Position numbers and translations under genes: made by a program
In this document: piece by piece, positions 1-29,275 of the stretch
How positions within the stretch are numbered: the first letter of the stretch is position 1
How the letters are laid out: every line of letters begins with the position of its first letter
The notes under the pieces: model-generated
Databases searched by the model: none
Told to the model about the DNA's origin: nothing
What the model saw: the letters and a program-made list of their open reading frames with translations, nothing else
Assembly (NCBI GenBank): GCA_029865445.1
Contig: JAOUGY010000002.1
Span: forward strand, 1 to 36,225
Origin: Acidimicrobiia bacterium
Lineage (GTDB): Bacteria; Actinomycetota; Acidimicrobiia; Spongiisociales; ZC4RG35
DNA length: 36,225 bases
Reading direction: 5' to 3'

Positions 1-102
1 CGGCGAGCGGCGTCAAGCGGACAGATCTACCCAAAGACACATCGGTCCAGGGGGCTTCGGAGTCACGCCGACACCCCGGGAACCAGCAACCCCATTATCT
101 CT

Positions 103-293
103 GGGGGCTTCTCAACGCGGGAGACGGGCTTCTTGTGGGTCAGGTCTCGTGGGACGGCGCTGTTGCGAGTCTCCCAGCGCCGGCGGGTTTCAGTCGTCCA
201 CCTCGCACGGTGACCTCGCGTTGAGCATTCCCCCTACCTCCCAGCTCCCTTCGGTCGCTGGCAGGAACCTTCCCCCACTTCGTGGGGGACAAC
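103..293 (+). repeat. Copy A (core) of a GC-rich structured repeat family
   Basis: Roughly 85% identical by eye to 16282-16466. Same order of sub-motifs: GGGGCTTCTCAACGCGGGAG ... TTGCGAGTCTCC ... CGCGTTGAGCATTCCCCCTACCT ... CTTCGG ... CCTTCCCCC ... GGGGACAAC. Confidence 0.85.
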
Positions 294-436
294 GTTGCTG
301 TGGTCCCCCGGAGCGGAGCGAGGGGGGAAGGGACCCACAAGCGAAGCGCCGTGGGTAGGGGGACCCTCAACGCGGGAAACGGGTTCCTTGGGTACCACCG
401 TGTCGTGGGATGGTGCCGTTGCGAGTCTCCCAGCGC
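294..436 (+). repeat. Copy B (left arm + 5' half of core, truncated) of the same repeat family
   Basis: 28-nt exact match TCCCCCGGAGCGGAGCGAGGGGGGAAGG (304-331 vs 16226-16253). Then CTCAACGCGGGAAACGGG...TTGCGAGTCTCCCAGCGC. Homology to copies A and C ends near 436. Confidence 0.8.
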
Positions 437-467
437 GCTGCGCATCGCGCACAGCCCGCCGCGTGGC

Positions 468-485
468 CGAGCGAAGCGAGGCCCC
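468..485. repeat. 18-mer CGAGCGAAGCGAGGCCCC abutting the stop of a minus-strand gene
   Basis: Exact second copy at 17463-17480. Both are preceded by GCGTGGC, and both end 0-4 nt from the stop codon of a minus-strand CDS. Confidence 0.7.
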
Positions 486-1315
486 TAGATGATCTCCATG
501 ATGGCGGCGATGTCGTGGGGGCCGAGTCCGGCCGCGTCGGCCTCGAGCATGACCGCAGCGGCCTCCCCGGTCACCCGGCCCGCTGGACGGCGCTCGTCGG
601 CGAGGCGGAGGTCCTTGCTCATGAGCCCGACCGTGAACAGCGGCGTGAAATCGCGGGCCGCCAGCGGACCGGCCTTGTAATCGAGCAGTCTGGGCACCGC
701 CCCCGCTCTCAGCAGTTCTATGCAGGCCTCCACGTCGAGCCCGGCATCCTCCATTGCGAGGATCGCTTCGCCGATTGCCACGAGATGGGTTGTGAGCAGC
801 CGGTTGGTGATGAGCTTCATCTCGAGACCGGCGCCGTTGACGCCGAGGTGGTGGACGGCCGTCGAGAAGGTCGCCAGCAACGGTCGAAGGACCTCCACCG
901 CCGACTCGGCCCCTCCCAGCATGATTGCGAGTGTTCCGGCCTCGGCATGGATCGACGTACCCGACACCGGGGCGTCACAGAAGGCAATCCGGCGGTCGGA
1001 GGCCATCGACGCGACGCGACGCGACCCGTCCACCGAGATAGTCGAGAGATCTGCGCAGACCGTCCCGGCTCCGAGCATCGGAATCAGCGACCCGTACACC
1101 TCCTCGACGTGCTCGGTGTTCGGAAGCGAGGACATCACGACGCTCATTCCGGCGAGGTCTGAAAGGTGCTCAGACACCTCCACACCCGCCTCCGCCGCCC
1201 GTGACCGGGCATCGTCGACGGGGTCGACGCCCACGACGCGGTGACCGGCGTCGTTGAGGTGCCGCGCCATCTGAAAGCCCATCCGCCCCAATCCGACAAA
1301 CCCGATCTCAGCCAC
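485..1315 (-). CDS. NAD(P)-dependent beta-hydroxyacid dehydrogenase (3-hydroxyisobutyrate / tartronate-semialdehyde / sulfolactaldehyde reductase family)
   Basis: 276 aa. N-terminal Rossmann motif IGFVGLGRMG, family-typical length and C-terminal all-helical half. GTG start overlaps the upstream stop by 8 nt. Confidence 0.85.
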   Translation of the reverse strand: MAEIGFVGLGRMGFQMARHLNDAGHRVVGVDPVDDARSRAAEAGVEVSEHLSDLAGMSVVMSSLPNTEHVEEVYGSLIPMLGAGTVCADLSTISVDGSRRVASMASDRRIAFCDAPVSGTSIHAEAGTLAIMLGGAESAVEVLRPLLATFSTAVHHLGVNGAGLEMKLITNRLLTTHLVAIGEAILAMEDAGLDVEACIELLRAGAVPRLLDYKAGPLAARDFTPLFTVGLMSKDLRLADERRPAGRVTGEAAAVMLEADAAGLGPHDIAAIMEII

Positions 1316-10405: not shown

Positions 10406-10489
10406 AAGCAACAAGCAACAAGCAACAAGCAACAAGCAACAAGCAACAAGCAACAAGCAACAAGCGACAGGCAACAGGCAACGGGCGAC
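10406..10489 (+). repeat. Heptanucleotide tandem array (AAGCAAC)x8 perfect + 4 degenerate units
   Basis: Read directly from the sequence. Units 9-12 are AAGCGAC AGGCAAC AGGCAAC GGGCGAC. The array starts 1 nt after stop codon TGA 10402-10404. Confidence 0.95.
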
Positions 10490-10580
10490 AGCTGAGGAAC
10501 GAGGACTCTCCGCCTCACGGCTTCGCCGGACTCCCCTGCCGTGCGAGAAACGAGACCCACCGCCACCCGCCTCCCTCGAG

Positions 10581-10616
10581 TTTCCTCCCCCAGCGGGGGA
10601 GGCGGCGCCGAAGGCG
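10581..10616 (+). repeat. Hairpin module H1 (CCTCCCCC-AGC-GGGGGAGG) + H2 (CGCC-GAA-GGCG)
   Basis: The 22-mer TTTCCTCCCCCAGCGGGGGAGG is identical to 29170-29191. At both loci it is followed by a short tri-loop hairpin. Confidence 0.85.
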
Positions 10617-10638
10617 ACGGAGGGGGAGAAAGCCCACC

Positions 10639-10659
10639 GCGCACAGCGCACAGCGCACG
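10639..10659 (+). repeat. Short heptamer array (GCGCACA)x3, last unit imperfect
   Basis: Read directly from the sequence. It occupies the same relative position as the GTACCCG array at 29248-29275. Confidence 0.75.
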
Positions 10660-10815
10660 GCGGCCCGGGCGCAGCTCGGGCCTAGACTCTCCCCAGCACG
10701 GATCGAGCGAGACCAGTTCGCCGAGGGCCGGCGTGGCGGTTACCGGGTGACGCCGCGACGGGACCAGCTGGTGGTGTCGCCGTCGACGTCGTCGACCCCA
10801 CCCGGACGAGGAAAC

Positions 10816-14388: not shown

Positions 14389-15167
14389 CACACTTCGACA
14401 TGGCAGCAGACACCCGAGCACCCACGAGCCTCATCGAACGGATGATGCGGGTCATCGAAGCGGTGGTCGATGCGGCCGAGCCAGTCGGCCCCCGTGGTCT
14501 CGCCAGGTCACTCGGCATCGACCGCAGCGCCGTCGGGCGCATCCTCCTCCAACTCACCGAGCTCGACGTGCTGGAGCGAACGAGCGAAGGGTATGTGCCG
14601 GGTCCGCGACTCTTCGTGCTGAGCCGGGTCCTCGGTGCCCGCGACACCTTGCCCGAGATCGTGGGGCCGGTGCTGAGCGCTCTCGTCGACCGTTTCGACG
14701 AGACGTGTTACGTGTGCGCGTTTCACGGTGATGTCGCAGTCTTCACCCATGAGATTCAGAGTTCCAAGCCTCTCCGATTCGTCATCGAGCTGGGCCGCCC
14801 GGTTCCGCTCCACGCAGGAGCCGCCGGCCGGGCGATTCTGGCCGGGCTAGACGACCGACAGATCCGCGCCGTTCTCGGGGACCGATCGCTGGAGACTCTC
14901 ACGTCGACCACGATCACCGATGTCGACGAACTCGTCGAGCTGGCCCGAGGTGATCGGGACCGGGGGTTCACGGTGAGCAAAGAGGAGCGGGTCGCCGGAG
15001 GTGCTTCCATCGCCGCACCCTTCTTCGATCAACACGGCCGCTGCCAGGGTTCGGTGGTGTTCACCACCCCGCTGAGCAGGCTCGACACCGCCCAGATCGA
15101 CGAGATCGGAACTGCGGTCGCCGAATCGGCACGAGCCTTGACGGAACGCTTGAGGAGAGGTGGTTGA
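14385..15167 (+). CDS. IclR family transcriptional regulator
   Basis: N-terminal winged HTH (GPRGLARSLGIDRSAVGRILLQL) plus an IclR-type effector domain. GTGA overlap at 14385-14388. Confidence 0.85.
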   Translation: MTHFDMAADTRAPTSLIERMMRVIEAVVDAAEPVGPRGLARSLGIDRSAVGRILLQLTELDVLERTSEGYVPGPRLFVLSRVLGARDTLPEIVGPVLSALVDRFDETCYVCAFHGDVAVFTHEIQSSKPLRFVIELGRPVPLHAGAAGRAILAGLDDRQIRAVLGDRSLETLTSTTITDVDELVELARGDRDRGFTVSKEERVAGGASIAAPFFDQHGRCQGSVVFTTPLSRLDTAQIDEIGTAVAESARALTERLRRGG

Positions 15168-16221
15168 CGTGTTTGGTATCGGCATGATCGGGCTGGGCCG
15201 GTGGGCCAACGCCCACGGGGACGCCGCTGCTCGCTCCGACCGCGTTCGCATCGTTAGCTGCTTCGCTCGGACAGAGGCTGCCAGGGACGACTACCAGCGG
15301 CGGTATGGCGTCGATCGGACCGCCGGGTCGATCGACGAGTTGCTGTCGGACCCGGACGTCCACGGGGTCGTGATATCGACACCCAACGACCTCCACGTCG
15401 AACATGCCCTCGCCGCCGTCAGAGCCGGCAAGCCTGCCCTCATCGACAAACCTGTGAGCGTCGACACCGCGGAAGGTCTCACCCTCTTGCGTGCTGCGGT
15501 TTCAGCCGGCGTGGCCGTCGGTGTCGCTCATCATCCCCGCCGCCTGGCCGGCCTCCGGGCGGCGAAACGTTGGCTCGAGTCGAGCGAATCGGGCAGGGTT
15601 CGCCTCGCCCATGCCGACTTCTCCAACAACCGGAGCGCCCACATGAGGCCCGATGCCTGGCACCGGTCGGCCCGTGGGTCCGAGGCCGGCGTTCTCATCC
15701 AAGTGGGTATCCACCAGGTCGAGAACATGCTGTACCTGCTGGGCCCAGCGGTCTCGGTGAATGCCCGCTTCCGTCATGACACGCTCGGTCCCACGATGCC
15801 GGACCTGGCGGCGGTGACGATGGTGCACGCCTCAGGGGCCGTGTCGAGCGTGACGAGCAGTTGGACGACCCCCGGGTACTTCTCGGTCGAGCTCCTGGCA
15901 ACAGGCGGCAACCTCACGTATCGCCTCGACCACCGCAGGTGGACGAGCGGCGACGTCGACGACTTCGGCGAGGCCTGGCTCCATCCCACCGATGGGGAAC
16001 GAACGCCCCTCCCGACAGGCAAGGGCGACCCGTTGAGAGAGCAACTGGAGGAACTACCTGCCGGAACGATGGAGGTCGACGTCGTTGCGGGCCTGCGGGC
16101 AACCATGGTGGTGGAAGCGTCGGTTCAATCGGCCCAGTCCGGTGGCGCCGCCATCGACCTCGCCTCTCTCGCCCAAGCCGCCGGCGCCACCCCCGAAGAG
16201 ATCAGCCTGCTCCTGACCTGA
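15160..16221 (+). CDS. Gfo/Idh/MocA family oxidoreductase
   Basis: GIGMIGLGRWA Rossmann start and LIDKP motif. The start is ambiguous (GTG 15160 or GTG 15169). Confidence 0.8.
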   Translation: MVDVFGIGMIGLGRWANAHGDAAARSDRVRIVSCFARTEAARDDYQRRYGVDRTAGSIDELLSDPDVHGVVISTPNDLHVEHALAAVRAGKPALIDKPVSVDTAEGLTLLRAAVSAGVAVGVAHHPRRLAGLRAAKRWLESSESGRVRLAHADFSNNRSAHMRPDAWHRSARGSEAGVLIQVGIHQVENMLYLLGPAVSVNARFRHDTLGPTMPDLAAVTMVHASGAVSSVTSSWTTPGYFSVELLATGGNLTYRLDHRRWTSGDVDDFGEAWLHPTDGERTPLPTGKGDPLREQLEELPAGTMEVDVVAGLRATMVVEASVQSAQSGGAAIDLASLAQAAGATPEEISLLLT

Positions 16222-16467
16222 GTTGTCCCCCGGAGCGGAGCGAGGGGGGAAGGTTCCTGCCGGCCGGAGGCCGGGAGGTACGGGGCTTCTCAACGCGGGA
16301 GGCGGGTTTCTTGTGTGCCAGGTCCCGCGGGATGGCGCCGTTGCGAGTCTCCTGGTGCCGGCGGGTTGCGGGTGTCCACCTCACAGTGTGGTTCCGCGTT
16401 GAGCATTCCCCCTACCTGCCATCTCTCTTCGGTCGATGGCAGGGACCTTCCCCCAAGGGGACAACTC
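16220..16467 (+). repeat. Copy C (complete) of the structured repeat, closed by terminal inverted repeats. MITE-like element or structured ncRNA.
   Basis: The 11-bp TIR GAGTTGTCCCC (16220-16230) pairs with GGGGACAACTC (16457-16467). A further 17-bp pairing joins 16245-16261 to 16438-16454. The core is homologous to 103-293. Confidence 0.85.
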
Positions 16468-16494
16468 CAGGGGTCCGTGAGGCCTCGCACCGGT

Positions 16495-17373
16495 TCACAG
16501 GAAGACGTGGTCGGCCTGATCGACGAACGGCATGAACCCGAGCGTGGCGTATACGTGATTCGACGTCTGATTGTCCAAGTCTGTGTACAGGCACACCTGG
16601 AGGCCACGATCGGTGAGATGGCGCGATACGGCGGCCACGCACCCCTTGGCGAACCCCTTCCCGCGAAAGTCGGGCGGCGTGTAGACGGGTGCGATCCGGG
16701 CCACGCCATGGACCGGAGGGTTGTGGCCGGTTGCGTGCACGACCTGGCCTTCGTGCTCCCACACCCACAACCGCTCCTGCTCGACCAAACGCACCACGGA
16801 CGTGGCGGGAACGGTTTCTGGTCCCGGGTCATCTCGTCCGGCCTGGATGGCGGCTTCGGCTTCGAACACCTCCAGCCATGGTCGCACCACCTCCACGTCC
16901 TCGATGCGGGCGAGCCGCGCCCTGCCCGGAATTCCGGCTGGTTCGATCAACTCTCCAAGGAGGTGAAGCCGCGAGCGCTGCAGAACGCCCACCGCCCGAC
17001 CGGTCGCTGCCGCGAGGCGATCGGCGATCAAGCGAGCGGCGGGCAGAGCGCCATTGACTCCGACCGGAATCTCGCCACGGTCGAGAAGGGCCCCTGCGAT
17101 CGCATGGGCAGCTCGGTCTGACATCGGACCGGCAAACATCCCGACGGCCCTGCCGCCTTCCGCCAGCATGGCGGCTGAAGCCAGGACTCCATCCTCTCGA
17201 ACAAGTGCCCACCACTCGGACCGCTCCGACACCTCCCCGCGAGACCGGGAATCCGCGGTGATCCTCGCGACCGTCCCGATGACCGTCGTCGACAGCGGGT
17301 CCGCGGCAAGAAGCGGCTCGGCGAGCTCAGCGAACACCGCCGGGTCGTCGTAGAACGTGACTTCTACTCCCAT
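16495..17373 (-). CDS. GNAT family N-acetyltransferase (two-domain)
   Basis: Acetyl-CoA motif RGKGFAKG and C-terminal NQTSNHVYATLGF. Start is ATG 17373, or GTG 17376. Confidence 0.75.
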   Translation of the reverse strand: MGVEVTFYDDPAVFAELAEPLLAADPLSTTVIGTVARITADSRSRGEVSERSEWWALVREDGVLASAAMLAEGGRAVGMFAGPMSDRAAHAIAGALLDRGEIPVGVNGALPAARLIADRLAAATGRAVGVLQRSRLHLLGELIEPAGIPGRARLARIEDVEVVRPWLEVFEAEAAIQAGRDDPGPETVPATSVVRLVEQERLWVWEHEGQVVHATGHNPPVHGVARIAPVYTPPDFRGKGFAKGCVAAVSRHLTDRGLQVCLYTDLDNQTSNHVYATLGFMPFVDQADHVFL

Positions 17374-17462
17374 CACCGGAGGGTAGAGACCGCAGAATCT
17401 CGACGCCTTGCGATAAGCAGAACGCCGCGGCTACAGCTTCTGGCCCACGGCGCGTGGCGCAC

Positions 17463-17480
17463 CGAGCGAAGCGAGGCCCC
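17463..17480. repeat. Second copy of the 18-mer CGAGCGAAGCGAGGCCCC
   Basis: Exact match to 468-485. It lies 4 nt from the stop of the minus-strand CDF gene. Confidence 0.7.
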
Positions 17481-29050: not shown

Positions 29051-29106
29051 AGTCCCCAGCCCCCAGTCCCCAGTCGCCAGTCCCCAGCCCCCAGTCCCCA
29101 GTCGCT
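29051..29106 (+). repeat. Heptanucleotide tandem array, 8 units, organised as a 28-nt super-unit x2
   Basis: (AGTCCCC AGCCCCC AGTCCCC AGTCGCC) followed by (AGTCCCC AGCCCCC AGTCCCC AGTCGCT). The array starts 4 nt after stop TGA 29044-29046. Confidence 0.95.
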
Positions 29107-29169
29107 TGGCGTTGGGGCACGAGAACGCCGGTCCCGCAAGTTCCCACATCCGTCCAATCCACCATCCTG

Positions 29170-29207
29170 TTTCCTCCCCCAGCGGGGGAGGTGTCCCCGG
29201 AGGGGAC
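29170..29207 (+). repeat. Hairpin module H1 (CCTCCCCC-AGC-GGGGGAGG) + H2 (GTCCCC-GGA-GGGGAC)
   Basis: The 22-mer is identical to 10581-10602. H2 has a different stem sequence but the same tri-loop hairpin shape. Confidence 0.85.
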
Positions 29208-29247
29208 GGAAGGGAGACCGAGGCCCGCAGTGCCGGCTCCGGTCCAA

Positions 29248-29275
29248 GTACCCGGTACCCGGTACCCGGTACCGG
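29248..29275 (+). repeat. Heptamer array (GTACCCG)x3 + GTACCGG
   Basis: Read directly from the sequence. Confidence 0.9.

What the first reader, a model, noticed from the sequence alone, without database searches (positions are those of the whole stretch)
16220..16467. Complete 248-nt element closed by 11-bp + 17-bp terminal inverted repeats, with compensatory changes in internal hairpins: MITE-like element or novel structured RNA
GAGTTGTCCCC (16220-16230) pairs perfectly with GGGGACAACTC (16457-16467). In addition, 16245-16261 pairs with 16438-16454 (17 bp, one G-T). The left repeat overlaps the stop codon of the upstream gene (TGA 16219-16221).
Comparison of internal structure with copy A:
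(a) Hairpin GGCGCCG-TTGCGAGTCTCC-TGGTGCC (16334-16359) versus GGCGCTG-TTGCGAGTCTCC-CAGCGCC (156-181). The 12-nt loop is identical in all three copies. One pair is fully compensated (C-G vs T-A), and two G-C pairs become G-T.
(b) Hairpin CCTGCCATC-N11-GATGGCAGG (16415-16443) versus CCTCCCAGC-N11-GCTGGCAGG (237-265). One pair is compensated (T-A vs G-C), there is one mismatch in copy A, and the loop contains C(UUCG)G.
(c) A long-range stem CTCAACGCGG / CCGCGTTGAG (16289-16298 / 16394-16403) is conserved in copy A (111-119 / 217-225).
G-T-tolerant covariation and UUCG loops point to selection at the RNA level. Terminal inverted repeats and multiple dispersed or tandem copies point to a non-autonomous mobile element. 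Alternative pairings, such as GGCAGG pairing with either of two CCTGCC sites, could allow a switch.
Basis: seen in the sequence. Interest (0 to 1): 0.7.

Follow-up and report, generated by a model that had tools for sequence, protein, structure and literature searches.

The report
Palindromic intergenic repeat targeted by IS110
The 248-base element is one copy of a nested-palindrome DNA repeat family (like bacterial REP/BIME or MITE repeats) in an uncultured, probably Acidimicrobiia-like actinobacterium; it is the landing site for two RNA-guided IS110-type insertion sequences, and there is no good evidence that it is a new structured RNA.

Summary
The sequence facts hold. The 11-bp and 17-bp inverted repeats, the internal hairpins and the two other copies are all present.

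The element belongs to a family of about 245 nt. I found at least 18 distinct copies, on average 81% identical, in contigs of this organism and close relatives from one series of JGI metagenomes and one series of ENA assemblies. None turned up in relatives with 75% protein identity, in plasmids, phages or viral contigs, or in Rfam.

The family is a mosaic of nested palindromes with swappable hairpin modules, stand-alone mini-hairpins, tandem arrays and truncated copies. It lies just past stop codons.

Both strands fold equally well. Base pairing is conserved (85% of cells), but covariation is no higher than in shuffled controls. No target-site duplications are seen.

New result: "copy A" is the 3' part of a copy split by an IS110-family insertion sequence. 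Window 1-102 (minus strand) is the start of that IS's bridge RNA. Two unrelated IS110 elements insert at the element's CCCC-CT-ACC motif, at nine or more junctions, and their bridge-RNA guide segments match this site.

Verdict: a REP/BIME- or MITE-like repeat, a new member of a known kind. The structured-RNA reading is not supported.

The parts
16220..16467 (+). Full-length copy C of the repeat. The family-level ends are 16222-16465. It lies between the convergent GFO/IDH/MocA gene (stop at 16219-16221) and the GNAT gene (stop at 16495-16497).
16220..16230 (+). Outer inverted repeat P1, left arm (GAGTTGTCCCC). It pairs with 16457-16467.
   Evidence: 11 nt, 100%
16457..16467 (+). Outer inverted repeat P1, right arm (GGGGACAACTC).
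16227..16248 (+). Module 1 terminal hairpin: CCCCC-GGAGCGGAGCGA-GGGGG. The tip has the form GA-GC-GNA-GC-GA. The same unit occurs alone as a mini-hairpin in L002.
16245..16261 (+). Second inverted repeat P2, left arm. It pairs with 16438-16454.
   Evidence: 17 nt, 94%
16438..16454 (+). Second inverted repeat P2, right arm. Its GGCAGG can instead pair locally in hairpin (b).
16256..16278 (+). Module 2a hairpin (CCTGCCGGCC-GGA-GGCCGGGAGG). In other copies an unrelated hairpin, module 2b (ACCCACAAGCGAAGCGCCGTGGGT), takes its place.
16277..16285 (+). P3 left arm, GGTACGGGG. This is the IS110 target motif read on the other strand. In this copy it is degenerate (GTACG instead of GTAGG).
16408..16416 (+). 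P3 right arm, CCCCCTACC. This is the intact IS110 landing site, CCCC-CT-ACC. It is unoccupied in this copy.
16289..16298 (+). Long-range stem (c), left arm CTCAACGCGG. It pairs with 16394-16403 and is nearly invariant in the family.
16394..16403 (+). Long-range stem (c), right arm CCGCGTTGAG.
16334..16359 (+). Central hairpin (a), with the conserved loop TTGCGAGTCTCC (16341-16352). The lower 5 bp are kept. The sixth pair is unpaired in 15 of 18 copies.
16415..16443 (+). Hairpin (b), CCTGCCATC-N11-GATGGCAGG. It contains the only real compensatory pair in the family (T-A in 4 copies, G-C in 4).
103..293 (+). 'Copy A': the 3' 190 nt of a copy. It starts at GGGGGCTTC, exactly at the IS110 insertion point in the left P3 arm.
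1..102 (-). Left non-coding end of an IS110-family insertion sequence (IS-A). Its transposase gene lies beyond the window edge, as seen in L006 13171-14310. This stretch encodes the 5' part of the bridge RNA. The left target guide is at 49-58 (GAAGCCCCCT on the minus strand) and the right target guide at 27-32 (GGGTAG on the minus strand).
300..436 (+). 'Copy B': a 5' fragment (modules 1, 2b and the core up to the central hairpin), in tandem with copy A.
437..488 (+). Unit of a second, smaller hairpin repeat family (GCGCATCGCGCAC...GGCC-GAGCGAAGCGAGG-CCCC-TAG). It abuts the stop codon of the minus-strand gene 485-1315. The same unit flanks element copies in L002, L006 and L022.

Best explanation
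The element is one copy of a non-coding repeat family of about 245 nt that is specific to one lineage and works at the DNA level. It is built as a mosaic of nested palindromes: P1 > P2 > P3 > stem c, around a branched core. It has terminal hairpins and interchangeable hairpin modules, and so resembles REP/BIME, BOX or MITE repeats.

Shown:
- Copies lie in intergenic DNA just past stop codons, mostly between convergent genes.
- They occur singly, in head-to-tail arrays and as fragments, and they have diverged to about 81% identity while keeping their self-complementarity.
- Two unrelated IS110-family insertion sequences use the element as a dedicated landing pad. Each inserts at the CT of CCCC-CT-ACC in either P3 arm. 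Each carries, in its 5' non-coding end, bridge-RNA guide segments that match this site and its own ends.

Inferred:
- The family spread by a hairpin-dependent mechanism that leaves no target-site duplication. The enzyme is unknown. A Y1/RAYT-type transposase or recombination between copies are the obvious candidates.
- Copies persist because 3' intergenic sites are neutral.
- In read-through transcripts a copy would form a very stable stem-loop that could end or stabilise mRNAs.
For: Family membership and divergence:
- nhmmer and alignments find 18 or more distinct copies in the window and in metagenome or MAG contigs. Mean pairwise identity is 0.81.
- No copies were found in the 12-21 kb syntenic loci fetched from relatives with 75% identity.

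Palindromic DNA rather than a strand-specific RNA:
- Both strands fold with z of about -5.
- The profile also hits the reverse strand of the copies.
- 85% of cells are paired, against 44-50% when partners are slid. Covariation equals the shuffled controls.
- G.T mismatches number 45 and A.C mismatches 38.

Mosaic structure:
- Module 2a and module 2b are alternative hairpins at the same place.
- Stand-alone mini-hairpins occur: GTTGTCCCCCAAGGGGACAAC in L004 and GTTGTCCCCCGGAGCGGAGCGAGGGGGCAAC in L002.
- There are tandem junctions and recurrent truncation points.

IS110 link:
- PF01548 and PF02371 transposase genes lie inside split copies.
- All seven contigs that carry the IS-B transposase, together with L005 and L007, show the junctions ...GCCCC-CT|AATGGGGTTG...GGGATGT|CT-ACCTCCC.
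- L005 carries IS-B where L008 and L009, the same locus, do not.
- The guide segments lie in the order LTG, RTG, LDG, RDG. In IS-B they are GCCCCCT, GGAGGTAG, ATGGGATGTC and CCATTAG. In IS-A they are GAAGCCCCCT, GGGTAG, ATAGGAGC and TCTCTG. This fits the bridge-RNA logic described in PMC11208160.
- In the window, the intact CCCCCTACC motif occurs only inside the element copies.
Against: - The enzyme that spreads the element was not found, so the mechanism of spread is inference only.
- No clean empty site is available, so mobility rests on copy distribution and not on a direct before-and-after comparison.
- The central loop GTTGCGAGTCTCC and stem c are as conserved as the termini. Palindromy alone does not explain this, which hints at an unidentified binding site or function.
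- One genuine compensatory pair exists.
- Some contigs that span the 1.5-kb IS may be assembly chimeras (L023; L021 against L008). The number of independent insertion loci is therefore uncertain, although the junction sequences themselves are consistent.
Confidence: 0.72

Rival explanations
1. It is a classical MITE: a deletion derivative of a DDE-transposon, moved in trans by a transposase that recognises the GTTGTCCCC terminal inverted repeats.
For: The element has terminal inverted repeats, is about 245 nt long, does not code for protein, is present in many copies and lies in intergenic DNA. An IS630-type DDE_3 gene is present in one related contig, L022.
Against: - No target-site duplication flanks any of the six full copies.
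- The termini vary (GTTGT or GTGGT on the left; ACAAC, ACAGC or ACCAT on the right), although the termini as a whole are among the best-conserved segments.
- The termini also exist as stand-alone mini-hairpins.
- No element with the same ends and a transposase gene was seen in about 200 kb of related DNA.
- The IS630-type gene sits in the other, smaller repeat at a CTAG, and its flanking sequence does not resemble GTTGTCCCC.
Confidence: 0.15
2. It is a functional structured RNA, either an independent small-RNA gene or a cis-regulatory or switching 3'-UTR element, kept by selection on RNA structure.
For: - The plus strand has a very stable fold (-142 kcal/mol, z = -5.0).
- The central loop is conserved.
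- One compensatory pair exists in hairpin (b).
- Alternative pairings are physically possible (P1/P2 extended, or a four-way junction with two terminal hairpins).
Against: - No Rfam family matches, even at E up to 10.
- The minus strand folds equally well.
- The covariation score is 0.029-0.040 against shuffled means of 0.030-0.038, and 147-299 of 500 shuffles reach it.
- RNAalifold gives a covariation term of +6.45 and only 1 of 87 pairs with a double change.
- No promoter-like site was found.
- Half copies and copies split by an IS are common and tolerated.
- Copies are antisense to co-directional neighbouring genes at window 103-436 and in L011.
- An entire hairpin module is replaced by an unrelated one.
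Confidence: 0.07
3. Whatever its origin, its main role now is to act as a two-way transcription terminator, insulator or mRNA 3'-end stabiliser between convergent genes, as has been proposed for REP/BIME elements.
For: - Copies abut stop codons. They lie between convergent genes at window C, L002, L003 and L004.
- Either strand would form a long GC-rich hairpin.
- There is a weak terminator-like site at 16285-16303 followed by GGGTTTCTTG.
Against: - There is no U-tract after the outer stems.
- Relatives at 75% identity have none of these elements in the loci fetched.
- The position could simply reflect where insertions are tolerated.
- There are no expression data.
Confidence: 0.2

Closest known systems
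REP/BIME elements of Enterobacteria and Pseudomonas, and the IS110-family elements that target them (IS621 in E. coli REPs; ISPpu9 and ISPpu10 in P. putida REPs)
   Same: Both are extragenic palindromic repeats, often just after stop codons, arranged as mosaics of inverted units. Both contain a GTAG/CTAC motif at the foot of a stem, and that motif is the site-specific target of IS110-family elements. Here too insertion is at the CT of ...CCTAC, and the target-loop guides of the bridge RNA match the site. Supporting papers: PMC11208160, PMC1525189, PMC12288879 and preprint 10.64898/2026.03.19.712850.
   Different: This unit is about 245 nt with a branched, non-palindromic core and a conserved central loop. 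REP units are 20-40 nt. No RAYT (Y1 transposase) gene has been linked to it. The host is an uncultured high-GC actinobacterial lineage. The sequences are not similar.
MITEs with long hairpin potential, for example the Neisseria Correia/NEMIS elements
   Same: Both have terminal inverted repeats, a length of 100-300 nt, many copies, no coding capacity and an intergenic position. The whole element can fold back on itself.
   Different: Correia elements and other MITEs have target-site duplications (TA for Correia, from my own knowledge) and uniform ends. This family shows no duplications, is modular, and has stand-alone terminal hairpins.
BOX elements of Streptococcus pneumoniae (modular boxA-boxB-boxC repeats)
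   Same: Both are modular, with sub-units that are variably present. Both have stable predicted secondary structure, an unknown mobilising enzyme and an intergenic position (from my own knowledge).
   Different: There is no sequence relationship. BOX elements are not known to be IS110 targets. The nesting of palindromes here is deeper.
IS110-family bridge RNA (Durrant et al. 2024, PMC11208160)
   Same: Window 1-102 (minus strand) and the left ends of IS-A and IS-B carry LTG, RTG, LDG and RDG segments in the canonical order, with a CT core.
   Different: This applies to the neighbouring IS and not to the 248-nt element. The element shares only the guide-length matches with either IS.

Membership tests
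MITE (non-autonomous TIR transposon) | Terminal inverted repeats | tested here: met
   The repeats are 11 bp and perfect in this copy. Across the family they are 9-10 bp, GTTGTCCCC/GGGGACAAC.
MITE (non-autonomous TIR transposon) | Target-site duplication flanking each copy | tested here: not met
   The flanks of six full copies share no direct repeat.
MITE (non-autonomous TIR transposon) | A cognate autonomous element or transposase with the same termini | tested here: inconclusive
   None was seen in the fetched loci. The full genome could not be searched.
REP/BIME/REPIN | Extragenic, multi-copy, imperfect palindromes arranged in mosaic or inverted combinations | tested here: met
   However, the unit is about 245 nt, far longer than a REP.
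REP/BIME/REPIN | Conserved GTAG tetranucleotide at the foot of the palindrome | tested here: met
   The P3 arms read GGTAGGGGG ... CCCCCTACC in nearly all copies. Whether this is functionally equivalent to the REP GTAG is not shown.
REP/BIME/REPIN | An associated RAYT (Y1 transposase, PF01797) gene flanked by the repeats | not testable with these tools
   The whole MAG (GCA_029858645.1) could not be fetched. No such gene appears among the genes called or scanned in the loci.
Structured non-coding RNA family | Statistically supported covariation in the proposed helices | tested here: not met
   the observed score equals the shuffled controls, and only one pair has a real double change.
Structured non-coding RNA family | Strand specificity (one strand structured, or a G.U bias) | tested here: not met
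   z = -5.0 on the plus strand and -5.6 on the minus strand. G.T mismatches number 45 and A.C mismatches 38.
Structured non-coding RNA family | Match to a curated RNA family | tested here: not met
   Rfam 15 at gathering thresholds and at E up to 10 gives nothing credible.
Natural target site of IS110-family (bridge-RNA) elements | Site-specific insertions, with the core dinucleotide on both sides of the IS | tested here: met
   The junction CCCC-CT|IS-B|CT-ACC is seen in L005, L007 (twice) and L021-L027. IS-A is inserted at the same motif in L006, in L023 and at the window edge. The left core of IS-A reads CA, not CT.
Natural target site of IS110-family (bridge-RNA) elements | The target-binding loop guides of the IS's non-coding RNA match the left target (same sense) and the right target (antisense) | tested here: met
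   IS-B has GCCCCCT and GGAGGTAG, and IS-A has GAAGCCCCCT and GGGTAG. The donor guides also match the IS ends.

The most novel reading that the evidence does not exclude
The conserved core (stem c plus the central hairpin with the near-invariant loop GTTGCGAGTCTCC) may be a functional module and not just drift-limited repeat sequence. One possibility is that it is the recognition site of an undescribed hairpin-dependent mobilisation system that leaves no target-site duplication. Another is that it is an RNA or DNA motif through which the element is itself copied or rearranged with the help of the resident bridge recombinases. In that case this would be a new kind of repeat that co-evolves with IS110.
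Probability: 0.1. Interest if true: 0.6.

Novelty: new member of a known kind. Interest (0 to 1): 0.3.

Why it matters
The result removes a false lead for a novel RNA. It also corrects the anatomy: 'copy A' is a copy that has been split by an insertion sequence.

It provides a clean natural example, in an uncultured actinobacterial lineage, of two unrelated bridge-RNA-guided IS110 elements that converge on the same 9-11-nt site inside a host repeat. All four guide segments can be read directly from the sequence. That is useful for cataloguing natural pairs of bridge RNA and target, and for understanding how such insertion sequences find 'safe' intergenic landing pads.

The repeat family itself is not in Rfam, and I found no match to it in the plasmid, phage or viral collections. 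It is of ordinary interest for genome annotation and for assembly, because it breaks contigs.

Tried and rejected
- Rfam gathering scan of the whole window, and a permissive scan of 16100-16600: nothing credible.
- tRNA/tmRNA scan: none.
- blastn of the element against plasmids and phages: no match.
- Two pattern scans of viral contigs: none.
- The scan of GTDB genomes gave one hit, in an Opitutaceae MAG. On inspection it is a chance match to the two short motifs, with no similarity around them. L010 from the metagenome scan is likewise a chance match.
- The idea that the element derives from the IS110 elements or encodes part of their bridge RNA: rejected, because only guide-length matches are shared.
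- A small-ORF reading: rejected, because the ATG at 16332 is absent from other copies and indels break the frame.
- attC-like site: rejected, because the GTT.../...AAC ends are in the opposite order to attC sites (my own knowledge).
- A possible tertiary pairing of GGGAGNC (16297-16303) with the loop GTCTCC(C/T): the variable N does not covary with the invariant T, so it is unsupported.
- Search for an empty site through homologues of the GFO protein: the only close relative (99%) has the element, and the 75% relatives have a different downstream gene. No clean empty site was found.
- Literature search for the MAG accession: nothing.
Full report
**1. What is in the sequence**

Window 16220-16467 lies in the 273-nt gap between two convergent genes. 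One is a GFO/IDH/MocA oxidoreductase gene (15160-16221, plus strand). The other is a GNAT acetyltransferase gene (16495-17376, minus strand).

The 11-bp perfect inverted repeat (16220-16230 / 16457-16467) and the 17-bp repeat (16245-16261 / 16438-16454, 94% complementary) are both real. So are the 9-bp hairpin 16415-16443 and the long-range stem 16289-16298 / 16394-16403. The upstream gene's TGA overlaps the first two bases of the left repeat.

The plus strand folds to -142.1 kcal/mol (z = -5.0). The minus strand folds just as unusually well, at -126.9 kcal/mol (z = -5.6). That is what a DNA palindrome would give, not a strand-specific RNA.

Rfam gives nothing at gathering thresholds for the whole window, and nothing credible at E up to 10 for the region. 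There are no tRNA or tmRNA genes and no promoter-like site.

**2. The family**

- The window holds two more pieces, at about 103-293 and 300-436.
- A motif scan of metagenome contigs returned nine true loci, from the Ga0224500, Ga0224505 and Ga0224510 samples (L010 is a chance match).
- The one hit in the GTDB genome collection is also a chance match.
- Plasmids, phages and viral contigs have nothing.
- The window itself is 99.97% identical to a contig of NCBI MAG GCA_029858645.1.
- Source names given to homologues of its proteins suggest Acidimicrobiia. This is only a hint.
- The syntenic loci of relatives whose GFO protein is 75% identical contain no copy at all in 12-21 kb.
- Ten more kilobases of the same genome, to the right of the window, contain none either.

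Altogether I aligned 18 distinct copies or fragments. Their mean pairwise identity is 0.81, with a range of 0.68 to 0.94. The family is therefore old and diverged, and is not a recent duplication.

**3. Architecture**

The family-level ends are GTTGTCCCC(C) ... (G)GGGACAAC. The extra GA/TC that makes the repeat 11 bp long in this copy is specific to this locus.

The element is a set of nested palindromes:
- P1: GTTGTCCCC / GGGGACAAC.
- P2: GGGGGGAAGG.. / ..CCTTCCCCC.
- P3: GGTAGGGGG / CCCCCTACC.
- Stem c: CTCAACGCGG / CCGCGTTGAG.
- These surround a branched core that contains the hairpin with the conserved loop GTTGCGAGTCTCC.

Each end is also a local hairpin. The 5' end is CCCCC-GGAGCGGAGCGA-GGGGG. 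The 3' end is CCCCC-AA- or -ACTTCGT-GGGGG. An extended form and a four-way-junction form are therefore both possible.

The family is a mosaic:
- The hairpin between P2 and P3 comes in two unrelated versions, 2a (CCTGCCGGCCGGAGGCCGGGAGG) and 2b (ACCCACAAGCGAAGCGCCGTGGGT).
- The terminal hairpins occur alone. L004 has GTTGTCCCCCAAGGGGACAAC and L002 has GTTGTCCCCCGGAGCGGAGCGAGGGGGCAAC.
- Copies form head-to-tail arrays with 6-8-nt spacers (window A-B, L006, L011, L025). Fragments end at recurrent points.
- A second, smaller hairpin repeat (...GCGCAC...GGCC-GAGCGAAGCGAGG-GGCC..CTAG) often flanks the copies, in either orientation, and touches stop codons.
- None of six full copies has a target-site duplication.

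**4. Is there RNA-level selection?**

- Pairing is well kept, at 85% of cells, against 44-50% when the 3' partners are slid by one to three columns.
- The covariation score (0.029 and 0.040) is the same as in column shuffles (0.030 and 0.038), and 299 and 147 of 500 shuffles reach it.
- Only three pairs show any double change.
- RNAalifold on six full copies gives an unfavourable covariation term (+6.45) and one double change in 87 pairs.
- The outer helices simply never vary.
- The 'fully compensated' pair in the central hairpin (16339/16354) is C.A or G.G in 15 of 18 copies, so it is not a conserved pair.
- The T-A/G-C exchange in hairpin (b) (16422/16436) is real, at 4 against 4 copies.
- G.T mismatches (45) and A.C mismatches (38) are about equally common, so neither strand is favoured.
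- The UUCG loops are not conserved.

Conservation is high at the termini, at stem c, at the right P3 arm and at the central loop. It is low in module 2 and in two core segments. The conserved central loop remains unexplained.

**5. The unexpected part: IS110 insertions**

ORFs that sit between element fragments are IS110-family transposases, with PF01548 and PF02371 domains. They are L006 13171-14310 (IS-A) and L007 231-1574 (IS-B). The two proteins align only over their C-terminal parts, at 23% identity.

In L006 the 5' fragment of a copy ends at ...GCTGCGGGTAG. The 3' fragment resumes at GGGGGCTTCTC..., on the far side of the 1290-bp IS. The window starts inside this same type of IS. Window 1-102 is syntenic with L006 14351-14442, so 'copy A' (103-293) is the 3' part of a split copy.

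The exact IS-B protein was then looked up. All seven contigs that carry it show the IS inside a copy of the element, with the junctions ...GCCCC-CT|AATGGGGTTG ... GGGATGT|CT-ACCTCCC. The insertion is in either the right or the left P3 arm. L005 and L007 show the same junctions.

L005 carries IS-B at a locus where L008 and L009, from other samples, have the intact element. This suggests recent activity. Some contigs that span the IS may be chimeric, for example L023.

Both ISs carry four segments in their 5' non-coding ends, in the order left target guide, right target guide, left donor guide, right donor guide. These match the target and the IS ends in the sense/antisense pattern described for bridge RNAs:
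- IS-B: GCCCCCT, GGAGGTAG, ATGGGATGTC, CCATTAG.
- IS-A: GAAGCCCCCT, GGGTAG, ATAGGAGC, TCTCTG (logic from PMC11208160).

In window coordinates, the IS-A left target guide is at 49-58 and the right target guide at 27-32, both on the minus strand. The left core of IS-A reads CA and not CT, and there is a 2-nt irregularity at its right end. I did not resolve either point.

Within the window, the intact CCCCCTACC motif occurs only inside the three element copies. In copy C, the left arm is mutated to GTACG. Neither IS shares anything beyond guide-length matches with the element.

**6. Interpretation**

The best-supported reading is a REP/BIME-, BOX- or MITE-like palindromic repeat that works at the DNA level. 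It occupies tolerated sites just past stop codons and serves as the landing pad for two bridge-RNA-guided insertion sequences. IS110-family elements that target REP sequences are well documented: IS621 in E. coli, and ISPpu9 and ISPpu10 in P. putida (PMC11208160, PMC1525189, PMC12288879, preprint 10.64898/2026.03.19.712850). Here too the insertion point is the CT of a ...CTAC (GTAG) motif at the foot of a stem.

How the repeat itself spreads is not shown. The lack of target-site duplications, the hairpin ends and the mosaic structure argue against a cut-and-paste DDE MITE. They fit a hairpin-dependent or recombinational mode better, but no RAYT or other enzyme was found in the DNA I could reach.

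A role as a two-way terminator or mRNA stabiliser is compatible with the position but is untested. The structured-RNA and riboswitch-like reading fails every test that could be run here.

**7. Verdict**

The element is a new member of a known kind of repeat. The interesting by-product is the pair of natural bridge-RNA/target matches, one of which begins inside the window. Interest is modest.

Noticed in passing
window 1-102 (minus strand): The window begins inside an IS110-family insertion sequence. These bases are its left non-coding end and hold the target-binding guides of a bridge RNA (left target guide at 49-58, right target guide at 27-32). The transposase gene lies just beyond the window edge, as in L006 13171-14310. 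Window 1-20 differs from the L006 version of the IS.
   Followed up: yes
window 437-488, 17431-17480 and 10640-10686; also L002, L006, L022: This is a second, smaller repeat family: GCGCA..GCGCAC...GGCC-GAGCGAAGCGAGG-GGCC-(C)TAG. Its hairpin tip contains the GCGAAGC mini-hairpin motif flanked by tandem G.A pairs. Units often touch stop codons and bracket copies of the 245-nt element in inverted orientation.
   Followed up: partly
L022 1735-2628: An IS630-type transposase gene (PF13358 DDE_3) is inserted at the TA of the CTAG that ends a unit of the small hairpin repeat. Next to it is a local duplication of about 35 nt of that unit.
   Followed up: no
window 10570-10625 and 29159-29214: A third repeat has two copies, 82% identical, and contains the hairpin CCTCCCCC-AGC-GGGGGAGG. 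Each copy lies in a long intergenic region downstream of a heptamer tandem array.
   Followed up: no
window 10406-10490, 29051-29105, 29249-29273: There are heptanucleotide tandem arrays in intergenic DNA: CAAGCAA about 12 times, AGTCCCC/AGCCCCC about 8 times, and GTACCCG about 3.5 times.
   Followed up: no
L007 1175-1256 (minus strand): The only Rfam hit above the gathering score in any locus scanned is Ms_AS-4, an actinobacterial antisense sRNA (69.5 bits). It lies antisense inside the IS-B transposase gene.
   Followed up: no
L023 679-3548: An IS-A-like copy and an IS-B copy sit in one cluster of elements. The two flanks of IS-B come from opposite arms and orientations of the element. This is either an IS-mediated inversion or recombination, or an assembly chimera across the 1.5-kb repeat.
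   Followed up: partly
L005 1-48 compared with L008 6664-6722: The same locus is assembled with IS-B in the left P3 arm in one sample (Ga0224505) and without it in two others (Ga0224510 and Ga0224500). This is an apparent insertion polymorphism.
   Followed up: partly
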